Assembly (NCBI GenBank): GCA_934148535.1
Contig: CAKPDF010000001.1
Location: forward strand, 127,361 to 191,360
DNA length: 64,000 bases
Direction of reading: 5' to 3'
From: an uncultured Bacilli bacterium
GTDB taxonomy: Bacteria; Bacillota_I; Bacilli_A; RF39; UBA660
The notes beneath the pieces were generated by a model. The model made no database searches, was not told the origin of the DNA, and saw nothing but the letters and a program-made list of their open reading frames with translations. Below, piece by piece: positions 23,609 through 28,792 of the stretch. Made by a program: the position numbers and the translations under genes. The stretch's first letter is position 1. Every line of letters begins with the position of its first letter.

Positions 23609-24175
23609 TTATACATACATATAATGGCTTCTTCTAACTATTTTTTCATCATTCTTATCTGATGCATACTTTGAAACTAAACAAACACTACCAGACTTAA
23701 GACTACTAGGTACATCAATAATTCTTTGATTCTTAGAACCTTTAAACTTTAAATCAAAACTTTTTAGTGCTAAAACAAATCTACCATCAACCAAGACATC
23801 AATATTTTTTAAAAAATTCATAATATATGGATTATTATCACTCTGTTCAATTAATTGTTCATAAGTAAAACCAGTATAACACCATACATTAAGTCCCATT
23901 TCCTTACAATGACTAGCAATAATAGAACAAGCTTCAGCCTGAGACATAGGATCTCCACCCGAAAATGTTATACCATCTTGTCCTTCTAAAGTATCTATTT
24001 TCTTTATAACATCATCAATATCAAGCAAAAATCCGCCATCAAAAGAATGAGTCTCAGGATTGTGACAGCCATAACAATTATGTGTACAACCCTGAGTCCA
24101 TATCACACTACGAATACCTTCACCATCAACTATACTATCTCTTTGAATTTGATCCGTAGCAAGTCTAATCTTCAT
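23609..24175 (-). CDS. nrdG: anaerobic ribonucleoside-triphosphate reductase activating protein (radical SAM)
   Basis: GCTHNCYGC (C-x3-C-x2-C) cluster near the N-terminus; 188 aa; immediately downstream of nrdD. Confidence 0.85.
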   Translation of the reverse strand: MKIRLATDQIQRDSIVDGEGIRSVIWTQGCTHNCYGCHNPETHSFDGGFLLDIDDVIKKIDTLEGQDGITFSGGDPMSQAEACSIIASHCKEMGLNVWCYTGFTYEQLIEQSDNNPYIMNFLKNIDVLVDGRFVLALKSFDLKFKGSKNQRIIDVPSSLKSGSVCLVSKYASDKNDEKIVRRSHYMYV

Positions 24176-24177
24176 AA

Positions 24178-24351
24178 TTATTTATCAATAATTCCTTCTG
24201 TACCATGCTTAACTCTATCGTGTTCTTCAGCCTTCTTACCATTATTAAATCTATCAAGAGTACCAACTAAATATCCAGTAATTCTTCTTATTCTCTCAAA
24301 TCCAACACCCTCACCAACTAATTTTTCTTCTTTAACTTCTTCAGTTTTCAT
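24178..24351 (-). CDS. stand-alone glycyl-radical module of class III RNR (57 aa), separate ORF between nrdD and nrdG
   Basis: Manual translation MKTEEVKEEKLVGEGVGFERIRRITGYLVGTLDRFNNGKKAEEHDRVKHGTEGIIDK. RITGY...GK.EE..RVKH matches the NrdD C-terminal glycyl-radical consensus (RxxGY). Own SD AGAAGGAG 9 nt upstream; different frame from nrdD. Confidence 0.6.
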   Translation of the reverse strand: MKTEEVKEEKLVGEGVGFERIRRITGYLVGTLDRFNNGKKAEEHDRVKHGTEGIIDK

Positions 24352-24368
24352 AATAACATACTCCTTCT

Positions 24369-26657
24369 TTACTTATTATTTTTTATTTTATCAACGCTAA
24401 CTCCCTCGTATGCTTTTCTTCCACATCCAGGACAAACATCACCAATAATTCCAACATAACCACAAACTGGATCTCTATCAACTGGATGATTAATAGCACA
24501 ATATCCCATATTGTTTTCTTTCATAATACGAACTATTTTTTCAAATGCTTCTAGATTTTGAGTAGTATCACCGTCAAGTTCAATATAACTAATATGTCCT
24601 GCATTAGTAAGTTCGTGATAAGGAGCTTCCTTCTTTATTTTATTAACAATAGAAATATTGTAATATACTGGAACATGGAAAGAATTAGTATAATAATCTC
24701 TATCAGTTACTCCCTTAATCTTACCATATATTGCCTTATCAATATTAACAAATCTTCCAGATAATCCCTCAGCAGGAGTAGCAAGACAAGTAAAATTCAA
24801 ATTATATGTCTCCGAATATTCATCACACTTCTCGCGCATAAACTTAACAATTTTTAATCCAAGTTTTTGAGCCTCATCACTCTCTCCATGATGTTTACCA
24901 ATCAAAGCCTTCAAACATTCAGCAAGTCCAATAAATCCAATACTTAAAGTACCATGTTTTAATACCTTTCTTAACCTATCAGTAGGTTTTAATTTTTCTG
25001 AATCTATCCAAACACCTTGTTCCAATAAGAATGGAAAATTATAACTTCTCTTATTACATTGAATTTCAAATCTTTCAAGTAATTGATCTTTTACCATATC
25101 CATTAATTCTCCAAGTTCCTCAAAGAAACCTTTCTCATCTGTTTTATCATTAGTAACAATACCATGTTTAATTCCTAATCTAGGTAAATTAATAGATGTA
25201 AATGATAAATTACCTCTACCTGGAGTAACAGCCTTGTTAGGATCAACTACATTTCCTATAACTCTAGTACGACATCCCATATAACATACCTCAGTATTAT
25301 AATCCCCCTTATAATATTGAGCATTAAATGGTGAATCCATAAATGAAAAATTAGGAAACAATCTTTTAGCAGAAACCTTACAAGATAACTTAAATAAATC
25401 ATAGTTAGGATCCCCAGGATTATAATTAACTCCCTCTTTTACCTTAAAAATAGATATAGGAAATATTGGAGTTTCATTTTTACCCAAACCAGCATCTACT
25501 GACAATAAATAATTTTTCATAACCATTCTACCTTCAGGCGATGTATCAGTACCAAAATTAATAGATGAAAATGGTACTTGAGCTCCTGCTCTAGAATGCA
25601 TAGTATTTAAATTGTGAACAAATGCTTCCATTGCTTGATAAGTAGCCCTATCAGTCTTAGCCATAGCAGTCTCATAAGCCTTATCAAAAATTCTTCTTAC
25701 CTCACTACTATCCTTATAAAAAGGTTCAAAAACATTAATATCTACTTCAATAGAATTTAATTTATCAACTGTCATTGCAACTTTATCCATATTTACAAAA
25801 CTAATAAAATCAGTAAAATCTAAAAGTTCATAAATTGCTTGTTTAAATTCCTTTTTAAATGTCTTCAAAACTCCTGGTGCCATATAAAAATCAAATGCAG
25901 GAATACTTTGACCACCATGTTGATCATTTTGATTAGACTGAATTGCTATAGCAGCCAAAGCAGAATAAGAATTAATTGATTGAGGCTCTCTCAAATGACC
26001 ATGACCAGTAGAAAAACCTCCCTTAAATAACTTATTCAAATCTATTTGCATACATGTTGTAGTTCCCATGGCTAAGAAATCCATATCATGAATATGAATA
26101 TCACCATTATCATGGGCATCTGCAAATTTCTTCTTCATTAAATATGCCTTTGCAAATTCCTTTGATACAGTAGAACCATATTGCAACATAGTTCCCATAG
26201 CAGAATTACCATCTATATTAGCATTCTCTCTTTTAGCATCTTCTTCAACAGCAGACTTAAGTCCTAATCCCTCTAAAGATTTCAAAAATTTATGCATCTT
26301 TTTCTCATCAGAAAATAGTTGTCTAGACTGTGCTCTTCTCTCACGATATTCAGAAAAAGATTGAAATACATCCTCATATCCACACTTAGTTAAAGACGCT
26401 TCAATTAAATCTTGAATTTCTTCTATCTTAATTTTTTCTTCATTTTTATAATCTTTATTTATCTTCTTTAAAACATTTTGATATACCTTTTGAATATCTT
26501 TCTCAGTATACTTTGTTTCTCCTTCTTCATCAATAATACTATCAAAACCTTTTTTTATTGCAAGAGCAACTTTAGTAGTATCAAAATTAACTTTTTTGCC
26601 GTTTCTCTTTACAACCTTTATAGTATCAATTACTTCTTCAGTATTTGTATTAGCCAT
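24369..26657 (-). CDS. nrdD: anaerobic ribonucleoside-triphosphate reductase large subunit, C-terminally truncated (lacks the glycyl-radical segment)
   Basis: 762 aa; N-terminal ATP-cone-like region; C-terminal zinc ribbon (C...C...CPGC); ends right after the zinc ribbon. Confidence 0.9.
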   Translation of the reverse strand: MANTNTEEVIDTIKVVKRNGKKVNFDTTKVALAIKKGFDSIIDEEGETKYTEKDIQKVYQNVLKKINKDYKNEEKIKIEEIQDLIEASLTKCGYEDVFQSFSEYRERRAQSRQLFSDEKKMHKFLKSLEGLGLKSAVEEDAKRENANIDGNSAMGTMLQYGSTVSKEFAKAYLMKKKFADAHDNGDIHIHDMDFLAMGTTTCMQIDLNKLFKGGFSTGHGHLREPQSINSYSALAAIAIQSNQNDQHGGQSIPAFDFYMAPGVLKTFKKEFKQAIYELLDFTDFISFVNMDKVAMTVDKLNSIEVDINVFEPFYKDSSEVRRIFDKAYETAMAKTDRATYQAMEAFVHNLNTMHSRAGAQVPFSSINFGTDTSPEGRMVMKNYLLSVDAGLGKNETPIFPISIFKVKEGVNYNPGDPNYDLFKLSCKVSAKRLFPNFSFMDSPFNAQYYKGDYNTEVCYMGCRTRVIGNVVDPNKAVTPGRGNLSFTSINLPRLGIKHGIVTNDKTDEKGFFEELGELMDMVKDQLLERFEIQCNKRSYNFPFLLEQGVWIDSEKLKPTDRLRKVLKHGTLSIGFIGLAECLKALIGKHHGESDEAQKLGLKIVKFMREKCDEYSETYNLNFTCLATPAEGLSGRFVNIDKAIYGKIKGVTDRDYYTNSFHVPVYYNISIVNKIKKEAPYHELTNAGHISYIELDGDTTQNLEAFEKIVRIMKENNMGYCAINHPVDRDPVCGYVGIIGDVCPGCGRKAYEGVSVDKIKNNK

Positions 26658-26705: not shown

Positions 26706-26734
26706 ATTATAGAAAATATTAAGTAATATGTCAA
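26706..26734 (-). promoter_or_regulatory. Canonical sigma-A promoter for nrdD (TTGACA-17-TATAAT, minus strand)
   Basis: -35 revcomp of tgtcaa 26729-26734, 17-nt spacer, -10 revcomp of attata 26706-26711; ~45-nt 5'UTR to the nrdD ATG. Confidence 0.6.
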
Positions 26735-27937: not shown

Positions 27938-28792
27938 TTAATTAACTAGCTTTTTATCATTTATATATTCATAATTTAAAAAATTTTTCTCAGTAATAAC
28001 TGTTTTCCCTAATTCATTTTCTAAATTATCACGAGTAATTTTAGCTATATTGCCACCACGTTTTGCAATCTTTTTATTTTCTTCTAATCCATAAGGCTTA
28101 TACTCATTAGCAAGTTCCCTAGTAGCAATTTCTCCTAAATCAGTTAAAACAACCTCTATATCAGTCATATTATCTCTTAAAGATTCTTTTCTGAGTCCCT
28201 TAAAATCTTTATATTCACTTGCTTTCATTCCAGACCATTCTTTATAAATTTCATTAGTAAGTATTCCATATTCCACTCCACTAGATATACCACATTCTTT
28301 CCATACATCAGTTAATTTATTTCTATTTAAGATTCCCTTTAATCTAGATTCTATCCATTTATCAGTATATCCTCTCTTACGATAATAATCAATAGATCTT
28401 TTAATAGCAATCTCAGGATCAAATACTTCGTCTATTCTATCACTTCCCAAAGAAGCCAGCCAAACTTTAAAAGGTTCTGCTTTAGGACTAGGAACAGACT
28501 CAATTAATCTTAAAATACCTTTTGTATCTAATGTATCCGTCTTACGATATTTACCATCTTCTGCCAACATTTTCAACTGGTTAGTAACACTAACCAGTTC
28601 ACTTCCTTCATTATTTAATTTATTTTTTAACCATTTCCAATAATTTCTTGATTTTTGATAATCATTATCAGTTAAAGCACTAATCACATCAATAACACTA
28701 AAATAATAATCTCCTTTCTCACTACTCCATACACTTCTAATAGTATTATTCTCAAATAAATTTGAAATAGTTTTTAATTTACTTTCTACCAT
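27938..28792 (-). CDS. Bro-N domain protein (DinD-like)
   Basis: N-terminal ~110 aa fits the Bro-N pattern (IRSVW..GD.YFSVIDV...L......R..L...DG.YRKTD...GILRLIESVPSPKAEPFKVW). Confidence 0.4.
   Translation of the reverse strand: MVESKLKTISNLFENNTIRSVWSSEKGDYYFSVIDVISALTDNDYQKSRNYWKWLKNKLNNEGSELVSVTNQLKMLAEDGKYRKTDTLDTKGILRLIESVPSPKAEPFKVWLASLGSDRIDEVFDPEIAIKRSIDYYRKRGYTDKWIESRLKGILNRNKLTDVWKECGISSGVEYGILTNEIYKEWSGMKASEYKDFKGLRKESLRDNMTDIEVVLTDLGEIATRELANEYKPYGLEENKKIAKRGGNIAKITRDNLENELGKTVITEKNFLNYEYINDKKLVN

What the first reader, a model, noticed from the sequence alone, without database searches (positions are those of the whole stretch)
24178..26657. Class III ribonucleotide reductase with the glycyl-radical module encoded as a separate 57-aa ORF
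The 762-aa NrdD ORF ends (…CPGCGRKAYEGVSVDKIKNNK*) just after the C-terminal zinc ribbon. The essential glycyl-radical motif is not in it. Instead, 17 nt downstream in a different frame and behind a strong SD (AGAAGGAG, 9-nt spacer), a 57-aa ORF encodes …FERIRRITGYLVGTLDRFNNGKKAEEHDRVKHG…. This matches the NrdD C-terminal consensus (RRVCGYLG…GK.EEV..RVKH). Either the enzyme is genuinely bipartite, with the radical domain a separate small subunit analogous to the PFL spare part GrcA/YfiD, or nrdD carries a frameshift or nonsense lesion in this strain or assembly.
Basis: seen in the sequence. Interest (0 to 1): 0.6.

Follow-up and report, generated by a model that had tools for sequence, protein, structure and literature searches.

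The report
Two-piece anaerobic ribonucleotide reductase
This bacterium encodes the oxygen-sensitive radical-carrying tip of its anaerobic DNA-precursor enzyme as a separate 57-residue protein; the same arrangement is conserved in many gut and rumen bacteria, and free-standing copies occur in phages, so it looks like a cheap replaceable radical part not yet reported for this enzyme class.

Summary
On the minus strand, nrdD (762 aa, 26657-24369) stops just after its zinc ribbon. Seventeen nt later, behind its own Shine-Dalgarno site and in another frame, a 57-aa ORF (24351-24178) carries the NrdD glycyl-radical motif RIRRITG26YL. nrdG follows 2 nt downstream.

It is not a sequencing or frameshift lesion:
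- The exact 57-aa protein occurs on 192 contigs, and independent assemblies differ only by synonymous changes.
- 68 of 80 species-level genome loci have the same large-ORF plus small-ORF layout, across Bacilli, Clostridia, Desulfovibrionaceae, Fibrobacter, Succinivibrio and Treponemataceae.
- Spacers run from -83 to +298 nt, in all three relative frames.
- The small core shows dN/dS of about 0.11.
- No split large subunit keeps a radical domain.

The window's large ORF stops exactly where the radical glycine would lie, so it resembles an oxygen-cleaved NrdD.

Related free-standing copies sit in oxygen-defence operons, beside an intact fused NrdD, and in phage genomes.

Best reading: an obligate two-subunit class III RNR whose radical module is a separate, replaceable, GrcA-like protein. 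The literature I could search does not describe this.

The parts
24369..26657 (-). nrdD large subunit (762 aa): ATP-cone, 10-stranded barrel and zinc ribbon, with no glycyl-radical loop
   Evidence: Pfam NRDD 640 bits and ATP-cone 54 bits. NCBIfam PRK07111 1024 bits (cutoff 764), covering model positions 3-715 of 746. Aligns to 8P23 residues 9-705.
26331..26621 (-). ATP-cone (residues 13-109) of the large subunit
   Evidence: Pfam PF03477, E = 2.4e-14.
25272..25274 (-). Codon of Cys462, the predicted thiyl-radical cysteine (YMGCRTRV loop) that would receive the radical from Gly26 of the small subunit
   Evidence: Aligns with the P. copri TMGCRTRV loop, Cys416 (PMC11226230). Coordinates.
24423..24473 (-). 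Zinc-ribbon region D729-C745 (DPVCGYVGIIGDVCPGC). The first canonical Cys is Asp in this subfamily.
   Evidence: Alignment to the 8P23 segment RCLDCGY...CPKCG. The same DRDPVCG is present in fused and split relatives.
24369..24407 (-). Degenerate remnant of the radical loop (E751-K762, EGVSVDKIKNNK) plus the TAA stop. The stop lies at the position of the radical glycine.
   Evidence: MAFFT alignment with fused relatives. 25 of 39 nt identical, in register, with the small-ORF codons for EGVGFERIRRITG; this is the only non-self 39-mer in the window that reaches that level. The small-subunit profile scores this tail 1.5 bits, against 87-94 bits for fused tails.
24361..24368 (-). Shine-Dalgarno sequence AGAAGGAG of the small ORF, with a 9-nt spacer to the ATG
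   Evidence: Read directly from the sequence. 64 of 75 small ORFs in related loci have an SD-like site.
24178..24351 (-). 57-aa glycyl-radical small subunit (stand-alone NrdD radical loop)
   Evidence: Pfam NRDD positions 533-562 of 562, 32.5 bits against a cutoff of 26.2. Aligns to 8P23 residues 707-738. The exact sequence occurs on 192 contigs, and relatives are 56-60 aa. dN/dS is about 0.11.
24268..24294 (-). Motif RIRRITGYL (R20-L28). The Gly26 codon is at 24274-24276 and is the predicted radical site; Tyr27 follows it.
   Evidence: Invariant in alignment A1. Gly26, Tyr27 and Arg34 align with Gly711, Tyr712 and Arg719 of P. copri NrdD (PMC11226230).
23609..24175 (-). nrdG, the radical-SAM activase (188 aa), starting 2 nt after the small ORF
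   Evidence: NCBIfam TIGR02491 NrdG 153 bits (cutoff 126) and Pfam Fer4_12 / Radical_SAM. nrdG lies downstream on the same strand in 63 of 75 related loci.
26706..26734 (-). Consensus sigma-70-type promoter (TTGACA, 17 nt, TATAAT) about 50 nt upstream of nrdD; the likely operon promoter
   Evidence: 12 of 12 match in the consensus scan. This is a consensus match only, not shown to be functional.

Best explanation
The locus encodes a class III (anaerobic, formate-type) ribonucleotide reductase built from two polypeptides plus its activase, probably as one operon, nrdD(large)-grd(small)-nrdG.

Shown here:
- The 762-aa large subunit has every catalytic element of NrdD except the radical loop. These are the ATP-cone, the NxN flap, the HxHD triphosphate site, Cys202, the thiyl Cys462 loop, Glu630 and the zinc ribbon.
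- The 57-aa protein is that missing loop: radical Gly26, Tyr27, Arg34 and the following short helix.
- The arrangement is conserved, separately translated and under purifying selection.

Inferred:
- NrdG uses SAM to abstract a hydrogen from Gly26 of the free small protein.
- The activated small protein inserts its loop into the barrel of the large subunit next to Cys462, and catalysis then proceeds as in fused NrdD.
- Oxygen cleaves a glycyl-radical chain at the glycine. Here that would destroy only the 57-residue piece, so the cell could restore activity with a new small subunit instead of a new protein of about 820 residues. This is the logic of GrcA/YfiD for pyruvate formate-lyase, made obligatory.

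The split arose by duplication of the 3' end of a fused nrdD, followed by decay of the in-cis copy.
For: Anatomy:
- The profile models are partitioned cleanly between the two ORFs.
- Catalytic residues are conserved against 8P23.
- nrdG is adjacent.
- A consensus promoter lies upstream, and no terminator lies between nrdD and the small ORF.

Not an error:
- The exact proteins recur on 192 contigs (small) and 36 contigs (large).
- Three independent assemblies have the same junction and differ only by synonymous SNPs.

Conservation:
- 68 of 80 species-level loci are split.
- Spacers run from -83 to +298 nt, relative frames 0/1/2 occur 18/28/22 times, and all three stop codons are used.
- 64 of 75 small ORFs have an SD-like site, and nrdG lies downstream in 63 of 75.
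- The 150 best representatives of 50%-identity clusters are nearly all 54-136 aa.

Selection: core amino-acid identity is 83% while third-codon-position identity is 39%; median dN/dS is 0.11.

The large subunits need a partner:
- 0 of 120 closest relatives have the Gly motif.
- The small-subunit profile scores fused tails 87-94 bits and all 67 split tails at most 9.8 bits.

Origin:
- Remnant tails align with the radical loop.
- The window tail matches the small ORF codon for codon, with its stop at the Gly position.
- L064 has an intact fused NrdD plus an extra small radical ORF plus nrdG.

Support for the repair logic:
- Orphan copies sit between superoxide reductase/rubredoxin and a flavodiiron protein/cytochrome bd (L052).
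- Others sit next to rubrerythrin with a Crp/Fnr-type regulator (L020, L059, L084-L087).
- Many orphan copies lie in phage genomes beside terminase and endolysin genes.
Against: - There is no biochemical, proteomic or transcript evidence. Radical installation on the free peptide, docking and exchange are all inferred by analogy with YfiD/PFL and from homology to fused NrdD structures.
- No usable structural model of the complex was obtained.
- I could not scan whole genomes, so a second, fused nrdD elsewhere in this organism is not excluded.
- In many Clostridia-type large subunits the post-ribbon tail (EKLxELRKKYPxMPxF) is itself conserved. That tail therefore has some function this model does not explain.
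- The NJ tree places fused forms among split ones, so the number of fission or re-fusion events is unresolved.
Confidence: 0.8

Rival explanations
1. Sequencing or assembly error, or a strain-specific frameshift/nonsense lesion in an ordinary fused nrdD (a pseudogene).
For: The two ORFs are adjacent, in different frames, and together cover the NrdD model. MAG assemblies do contain frameshifted nrdD genes, as in L006 and L017.
Against: - The junction is identical in independent assemblies, which differ only by synonymous SNPs.
- The layout is conserved in 68 of 80 species loci and in all 120 closest large-subunit clusters.
- The small ORF has its own SD and ATG and a dN/dS of 0.11.
- No single indel restores a fused frame. 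The large tail is a diverged duplicate of the loop, and about 12 variable residues precede the conserved core of the small ORF.
Confidence: 0.01
2. Programmed recoding (ribosomal frameshift, hop or readthrough) produces a single fused NrdD from the two ORFs.
For: The spacer is short (17 nt), and an A-rich run (ATA AAA AAT AAT AAG) lies at the end of the large ORF.
Against: - Across species the spacer varies from -83 to +298 nt, all three relative frames occur, and all three stop codons are used. No recoding signal is conserved.
- In the window, both shifted frames run into a stop: a TAA lies 8 codons upstream of the ATG in the small-ORF frame, and the other frame ends in TGA (read).
- Some spacers contain terminator-like and promoter-like elements, for example L043.
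Confidence: 0.02
3. The small protein is only an optional spare part, or a regulator or decoy for NrdG. The true working class III RNR is a fused NrdD encoded elsewhere, and the truncated large ORF is inactive or has another role.
For: Free-standing copies exist apart from any nrdD, in O2-stress operons and in phages. L064 pairs a small ORF with an intact fused NrdD. The rest of this genome was not available.
Against: - The large ORF keeps all catalytic residues and scores far above the NrdD equivalog cutoff.
- It is co-located with nrdG and the small ORF in 60 or more species.
- An inactive 762-aa protein would not be held at 46-96% identity across phyla.
- The small-subunit profile separates fused and split tails completely, with no intermediates.
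Confidence: 0.1
4. Protein trans-splicing or another post-translational ligation rejoins the two chains.
For: Inteins do occur in NrdD: L140, L142 and L147 carry a 1147-aa NrdD with an insertion at the catalytic Cys.
Against: - The junction has no intein-like sequence. The large tail is 12 residues, and the small N-terminus is about 12 variable residues.
- Neither piece matches any intein or Hint family in Pfam.
Confidence: 0.01

Closest known systems
Canonical fused class III RNR NrdD with activase NrdG (E. coli, phage T4, Prevotella copri; PDB 8P23, 1H78)
   Same: Same fold and family, with the large ORF about 47-50% similar to P. copri NrdD over residues 9-705. It shares the ATP-cone, NxN flap, HxHD motif, thiyl-Cys loop and zinc ribbon. 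The radical motif R-I-T-G-Y-L-V-G-T is the same, the activase is adjacent, and the active site is formate-type (Asn483 in place of a third Cys).
   Different: The glycyl-radical loop and its following helix are on a separate 57-aa polypeptide. The large chain ends at the position of the radical glycine.
GrcA/YfiD of E. coli and Y06I of phage T4 (autonomous glycyl-radical cofactors, or spare parts, for pyruvate formate-lyase)
   Same: It is a small stand-alone protein that carries only the glycyl-radical loop of a glycyl radical enzyme, presumably activated by the partner's activase. The partner resembles the O2-cleaved enzyme. Relatives are encoded in O2-stress contexts and in phages (PMC8683613, PMC13450708).
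   Different: It is not homologous at the family level: there is no PF01228 or GrcA hit, and the loop is NrdD-type. In this window it is an obligate subunit, because the enzyme has no radical loop of its own. It has no long disordered N-terminal half. Rescue activity has not been tested.
Split class II RNR NrdJa/NrdJb of Pseudomonas aeruginosa
   Same: An RNR catalytic chain naturally divided into two adjacent genes (PMC9669993, citing Crona et al. 2015).
   Different: It belongs to a different RNR class and uses a different cofactor (B12). [quoted passage not shown]
Class I RNR NrdA/NrdB
   Same: Conceptually similar: the stable radical is stored on a separate, smaller subunit that docks onto the catalytic subunit.
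   Different: The radical subunit is unrelated (a ferritin-like di-metal tyrosyl or metal-centred radical). The radical travels by long-range transfer rather than through a loop inserted next to the thiyl cysteine.

Membership tests
Class III RNR catalytic subunit NrdD (Pfam PF13597; NCBIfam PRK07111) | Whole-protein HMM score above the curated cutoff | tested here: met
   Large ORF: NRDD 640 bits (cutoff 26.2) and PRK07111 1024 bits (cutoff 764).
Class III RNR catalytic subunit NrdD (Pfam PF13597; NCBIfam PRK07111) | Catalytic elements: thiyl-radical Cys loop, first-strand Cys, HxHD triphosphate motif, NxN flap and the Glu that bridges to the GRD Tyr | tested here: met
   C462 (YMGCRTRV), C202, H188/H190/D191, N145/N147 and E630 align with P. 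copri C416, C171, 157-160, the flap and E581 (PMC11226230).
Class III RNR catalytic subunit NrdD (Pfam PF13597; NCBIfam PRK07111) | C-terminal glycyl-radical motif (R-x-x-G-Y) on the same polypeptide | tested here: not met
   The large ORF stops at model position 715 of 746, and its tail scores 1.5 bits against the radical-loop profile. The motif is on the separate 57-aa ORF.
Class III RNR catalytic subunit NrdD (Pfam PF13597; NCBIfam PRK07111) | Structural Cys4 zinc ribbon before the radical loop | tested here: inconclusive
   Three Cys are present (C732, C742, C745), with Asp729 in place of the first Cys. The same pattern occurs in fused relatives of this subfamily. Metal binding cannot be tested here.
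Class III RNR catalytic subunit NrdD (Pfam PF13597; NCBIfam PRK07111) | Dedicated radical-SAM activase NrdG encoded nearby | tested here: met
   TIGR02491 153 bits (cutoff 126), 2 nt downstream of the small ORF.
GrcA/YfiD autonomous glycyl-radical cofactor (Pfam PF01228 Gly_radical; InterPro IPR011140) | Sequence membership (PFL-type glycine-radical domain) | tested here: not met
   The small ORF has no PF01228 hit and no GrcA NCBIfam hit at E <= 0.1; it matches only the C-terminal ends of NrdD models.
GrcA/YfiD autonomous glycyl-radical cofactor (Pfam PF01228 Gly_radical; InterPro IPR011140) | Small stand-alone protein consisting essentially of a GRE radical loop | tested here: met
   57 aa, own SD and ATG. 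The family is 48-144 aa in 75 genome loci, and many copies are orphans.
GrcA/YfiD autonomous glycyl-radical cofactor (Pfam PF01228 Gly_radical; InterPro IPR011140) | The partner enzyme has its own radical domain, so the small protein is a spare rather than an obligate subunit | tested here: not met
   The window's large subunit lacks the loop. This feature is met only in related locus L064, which has an intact fused NrdD plus a small ORF.
GrcA/YfiD autonomous glycyl-radical cofactor (Pfam PF01228 Gly_radical; InterPro IPR011140) | Radical installed by the partner's activase, with activity restored to the O2-cleaved enzyme | not testable with these tools
   Needs EPR and activity assays.
Programmed recoding site or pseudogene | Conserved frame relation or slippery signal (recoding), or lack of conservation and relaxed selection (pseudogene) | tested here: not met
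   Spacer and frame are variable. dN/dS is 0.11. The layout is conserved across phyla.

The most novel reading that the evidence does not exclude
The NrdD glycyl-radical loop has become a free, exchangeable protein 'radical cartridge'.
- In many gut and rumen anaerobes the reductase is permanently kept in the form of an oxygen-cleaved apoenzyme and is loaded in trans by a peptide of about 55 aa.
- Cells carry extra cartridge genes under oxidative-stress control.
- Phages encode their own cartridges to re-arm or take over host anaerobic dNTP synthesis.

This would be the first spare-part or trans-acting radical subunit system for any glycyl radical enzyme other than pyruvate formate-lyase, and the first phage auxiliary gene of this type for RNR.
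Probability: 0.45. Interest if true: 0.9.

Novelty: new variant of a known kind. Interest (0 to 1): 0.78.

Why it matters
Glycyl radical enzymes are destroyed by oxygen through chain cleavage at the radical glycine. Only pyruvate formate-lyase is known to have a repair part (GrcA/YfiD). [quoted passage not shown]

This locus, with its many relatives, gives a concrete and widespread candidate for the essential anaerobic ribonucleotide reductase. It comes in three forms: an obligate split form, an operon-encoded spare beside an intact enzyme, and orphan copies in oxygen-defence operons and in phages.

Consequences if the reading holds:
- The open question becomes directly testable with three small recombinant proteins.
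- It offers a natural system for studying how an activase handles a free radical loop and how the loop enters the barrel.
- It may help explain how strict gut anaerobes keep DNA synthesis going through transient oxygen exposure.
- It affects annotation. The large ORFs are filed as complete NrdD, and the small ORFs as 'hypothetical' or partial NrdD. Phylogenomic surveys that discard proteins under 400 aa would not see the split (PMC9531940).

Tried and rejected
Structure prediction of the complex:
- A single-sequence concatenation of large + small gave an unusable model, mean pLDDT 36.
- Alignments that mixed full-length and fragment rows were misaligned by MAFFT: small rows landed inside the barrel region, or their FERIRR segment aligned to the remnant tail. 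No second job was submitted.

Literature:
- Eight full-text searches on split, truncated or bipartite NrdD, on spare part plus RNR, on GrcA plus NrdD, and on phage auxiliary genes found no description of this arrangement.
- Passages checked in eight papers mention only split class II RNR and PFL spare parts.

Other searches:
- GenBank phages held only three unannotated faecal 'Bacteriophage sp.' records with a match.
- Rfam found only tRNAs in the window, so there is no riboswitch or intron at the junction.
- The listing of cluster members gave no organism names.

Considered and rejected: intein or trans-splicing, group I intron (as in T4 nrdD), recoding, and pseudogene. See the rival explanations.

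Not resolved: the exact species of the window. The closest named relatives are 'Bacilli bacterium' MAGs.
Full report
**Observation.** The window is AT-rich (27% G+C) bacterial chromosome carrying housekeeping genes: LeuRS, AlaRS, GyrB-like, RNase R, RecX and sporulation genes.

On the minus strand:
- A 762-aa ORF runs 26657..24369 and ends ...CPGCGRKAYEGVSVDKIKNNK-TAA.
- After 17 nt containing AGAAGGAG, with a 9-nt spacer, a 57-aa ORF follows in another frame (24351..24178): MKTEEVKEEKLVGEGVGFERIRRITGYLVGTLDRFNNGKKAEEHDRVKHGTEGIIDK.
- Two nt after its stop, a 188-aa ORF starts (24175..23609).

The large ORF is NrdD: Pfam NRDD 640 bits, ATP-cone, and NCBIfam PRK07111 1024 bits against a cutoff of 764. 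It covers only model positions 3-715 of 746. The small ORF matches positions 711-745 of the same model and the last 30 positions of Pfam NRDD. The third ORF is NrdG, TIGR02491 153 bits against a cutoff of 126.

Against the closest solved structure, Prevotella copri NrdD (8P23), the large ORF aligns to chain residues 9-705 and the small ORF to 707-738.

**Is it a lesion?** No.
- The exact 57-aa protein is on 192 contigs and the exact large protein on 36.
- Three independent metagenome assemblies carry the same 762 + 57 + 188 aa layout. They differ from the window only by synonymous changes (TAC/TAT, GAG/GAA, AAG/AAA), and the junction is identical.
- The 120 closest clusters of the small protein (81-100% identity) are all 56-60 aa, except one of 79 aa.
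- The 120 closest clusters of the large protein (at least 87% identity, 758-769 aa) all lack an R-x-x-G-Y motif in their last 80 residues.
- An exhaustive HMMER search of 1.84 billion cluster representatives found 2064 relatives of the small protein. The best 150 are almost all 54-136 aa.

**Breadth.** The 80 best come from uncultured Bacilli/'Tenericutes', many Clostridia (Oscillospiraceae, Lachnospiraceae, Anaerovoracaceae), Desulfovibrio/Mailhella, Fibrobacter, Succinivibrio/Succinatimonas and Treponemataceae, plus some bins labelled Muribaculaceae. All are from gut or rumen samples.

- In 68 loci a large ORF of 689-852 aa ends just before a small ORF.
- Two further loci (L006, L017) have the same layout but a frameshifted large gene in the MAG.
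- Six loci are fused.
- The spacer ranges from -83 to +298 nt, the relative frame is 0/1/2 in 18/28/22 loci, and the stops are TAA/TAG/TGA in 46/17/5.
- 64 of 75 small ORFs have an SD-like site, and nrdG follows on the same strand in 63 of 75, mostly within 20 nt.

This pattern is that of separate cistrons. It excludes a conserved recoding signal. In the window itself, both alternative frames hit stop codons before any fusion could form.

**Selection.** Across 76 small ORFs, the 38-residue core VGEGVGFERIRRITGYLVGTxDRFNNAKRAEExDRVKH is 83% identical at the protein level but only 39% identical at third codon positions. Median dN/dS is 0.11 for the 687 pairs with usable dS. In an alignment of 36 representatives, G13, G15, F18, R20-L28, G30, N36, E42 and D45 are invariant, while the N- and C-terminal tails vary freely.

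**What each piece contributes.** The P. copri structure paper describes residues 676-739 as the glycyl radical domain. It consists of a structural Zn site, a buried loop with Gly711 next to Cys416, a short helix (723-730) and a tail. Tyr712 is H-bonded to Glu581, and Arg719 contacts the NxN flap (PMC11226230).

- The window's large ORF keeps the flap (N145, N147), HxHD (H188, H190, D191), C202, the thiyl loop YMGC462RTRV, N483 (the formate-type site), E630 and the ribbon (D729, C732, C742, C745).
- The small ORF supplies Gly26, Tyr27 and Arg34, which align with Gly711, Tyr712 and Arg719, and the helix.

Together the two ORFs make one complete enzyme. Neither is complete alone.

**Origin.** Fused relatives read CPxCGRxEGxEG(I/V)GFERIRRITGYLVGT... 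The split large subunits keep, after the ribbon, a diverged copy of this segment.
- Some copies are short (window: EGVSVDKIKNNK).
- Some are medium (GEGVSxEKLRELRKKYPNMPxF...).
- Some are full-length but degenerate. In L009, GVSVEVLRKLGVYRGNTDNCGYCGDINEEKDRTINAV has Val at the radical Gly position.

A profile of the small proteins scores fused tails at 87-94 bits and all 67 split tails at 9.8 bits or less, with nothing in between.

In the window, the last 13 codons of the large ORF match the small ORF's codons for EGVGFERIRRITG at 25 of 39 nt, in register. This is the only non-self 39-mer in the 64-kb window to reach that level, and the TAA stop falls on the Gly26 codon position. The window's large subunit therefore has the length of an NrdD cleaved by oxygen at its radical glycine.

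Locus L064 shows a plausible intermediate: an intact fused NrdD (779 aa), then a 94-aa ORF with a second RIRRITGYL, then nrdG.

A neighbour-joining tree of the large-subunit cores (46-96% identity) places fused forms among split clades. The number of fission or re-fusion events is therefore open.

**Evidence bearing on function.** Five genome loci carry an orphan small ORF with no nrdD or nrdG within 3.5 kb. Pfam identifies the neighbours:
- L052 (Mailhella): desulfoferrodoxin, a double rubredoxin, the small ORF, a flavodiiron protein and cytochrome bd subunit I.
- L020 and L059 (Ruminococcus flavefaciens FD-1): a Crp/Fnr-type regulator, the small ORF and rubrerythrin.

The L059 and L064 proteins are a longer subtype of about 87-94 aa with an N-terminal domain of about 50 aa. 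It forms a large family in Ruminococcus. One member occurs in 2071 blocks of the collection, and in the four assemblies examined it lies between the regulator and rubrerythrin.

In IMG/VR, 59 of the 80 best loci are orphan small ORFs. The neighbours checked are DNA methyltransferase, endolysin, large terminase and replication initiator genes, so these are phage genomes.

Pfam, NCBIfam and PHROGs have no family for these proteins. They hit only the last 30 or so positions of NrdD models.

**Mechanism proposed.**

Shown:
- The enzyme's parts are encoded on two conserved, separately translated genes next to the activase gene.

Inferred from established glycyl-radical enzymology and the YfiD/PFL precedent (PMC8683613, PMC13450708):
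- NrdG installs the radical on Gly26 of the free small protein.
- The loop inserts next to Cys462.
- After oxygen damage only the small protein is cleaved, and it is replaced.

The oxygen-defence and phage contexts of orphan copies fit a repair or re-arming role, but they do not prove it.

**Comparison with known systems.** By every test except one, this is a class III RNR: the radical motif is not on the catalytic chain. It works like GrcA/YfiD but is not a member of that family, since there is no PF01228 match. In this window it is obligate rather than a spare. The split class II NrdJa/NrdJb enzyme is an analogy only.

**Novelty.**
- Eight full-text searches and targeted reading found no description of a split NrdD or of an RNR-type autonomous glycyl-radical protein.
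- A 2021 paper and a June 2026 review both state that spare parts are known only for PFL.
- The large RNR phylogeny discarded sequences under 400 aa.

The library does not include most subscription journals, so prior notice elsewhere cannot be excluded.

**Limits.**
- There is no experimental evidence.
- There is no complex model.
- I could not check whole genomes for a second nrdD.
- The top-80 samples are ranked by similarity to the small ORF, so the proportions (68 of 80, 59 of 80) describe those samples and are not frequencies among all NrdD genes.

Noticed in passing
L052:34-3810; L020:2808-4270; L059:1835-3490; L084-L087:4186-5867: Orphan NrdD-type small glycyl-radical ORFs with no nrdD or nrdG nearby sit inside oxygen-defence gene clusters. 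L052 has desulfoferrodoxin, rubredoxin, the small ORF, a flavodiiron protein and cytochrome bd. The other loci have a Crp/Fnr-type regulator, the small ORF and rubrerythrin.
   Followed up: partly
L088-L167 (IMG/VR), e.g. L089:3501-3644, L095:3501-3635, L104:3501-3638, L112:3501-3638: 59 of the 80 best viral-contig hits are orphan small glycyl-radical ORFs (40-130 aa). In the four loci checked, they lie in phage genomes next to methyltransferase, endolysin, large terminase or replication genes. This looks like an unrecognised phage auxiliary gene, analogous to T4 Y06I for PFL.
   Followed up: partly
L059:~2610-2873; L064:3354-3638; L125, L133, L159; proteins P0393-P0512: A longer subtype (about 87-116 aa) has a conserved N-terminal domain of about 50 aa (MKVNVIG..S.EEIDAY...DG.FVD..Y.F..PF.RIRRITGYL) of unknown fold. 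It occurs beside an intact fused NrdD (L064) or next to rubrerythrin (Ruminococcus). It is annotated 'hypothetical protein' or 'anaerobic ribonucleoside-triphosphate reductase'.
   Followed up: partly
L140, L142, L147 (fused NrdD ORFs of 1147 aa): These viral-contig NrdDs carry an insertion of about 375 aa directly at the thiyl-radical cysteine (YMG-C VAKES...SHN-C RTRV). That has the hallmarks of an intein with the catalytic Cys as its +1 residue.
   Followed up: no
Large-subunit C-termini in L007, L014, L021, L029, L031, L040, L043 and others; and in L004, L008, L022 and proteins P0297-P0392: The tails after the zinc ribbon are themselves conserved by clade: EKLxELRKKYPxMPxFxGxE in Clostridia, Fibrobacter and Desulfovibrio types, and Cys-rich ends (...NSCC, ...TCGGR, ...CDC) in the Bacilli type. 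This suggests they gained a function of their own, such as docking or redox. The window's tail is the shortest and has no Cys.
   Followed up: no
window 24462-24473 (D729..C732) and the same column in L001-L080: In this NrdD subfamily the first zinc-ribbon cysteine is Asp (HPVDRDPVCGY), in both fused and split members. Succinivibrio and Succinatimonas keep Cys (DRCPVCNY). The metal site may therefore be Asp/Cys3.
   Followed up: no
L043:3324-3497 (spacer between nrdD and the small ORF); also L033, L040, L062: Some species have spacers of 100-298 nt holding a terminator-like hairpin, a TTGACA-type promoter and, in L043, an NrdR-box-like palindrome (ACACAATATATTGTG). The small gene and nrdG may therefore be transcribed independently of nrdD there.
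   Followed up: no
window 27938-28792 (-): A 284-aa Bro-N domain protein (phage antirepressor-like) lies among housekeeping genes, in the stretch between the pseudouridine synthase gene upstream of nrdD and leuS.
   Followed up: no
L006:2385-3451; L017:1218-3457: The nrdD large genes in these two MAG or chromosome assemblies are broken by frameshifts. These are probably assembly errors and are separate from the conserved split.
   Followed up: no
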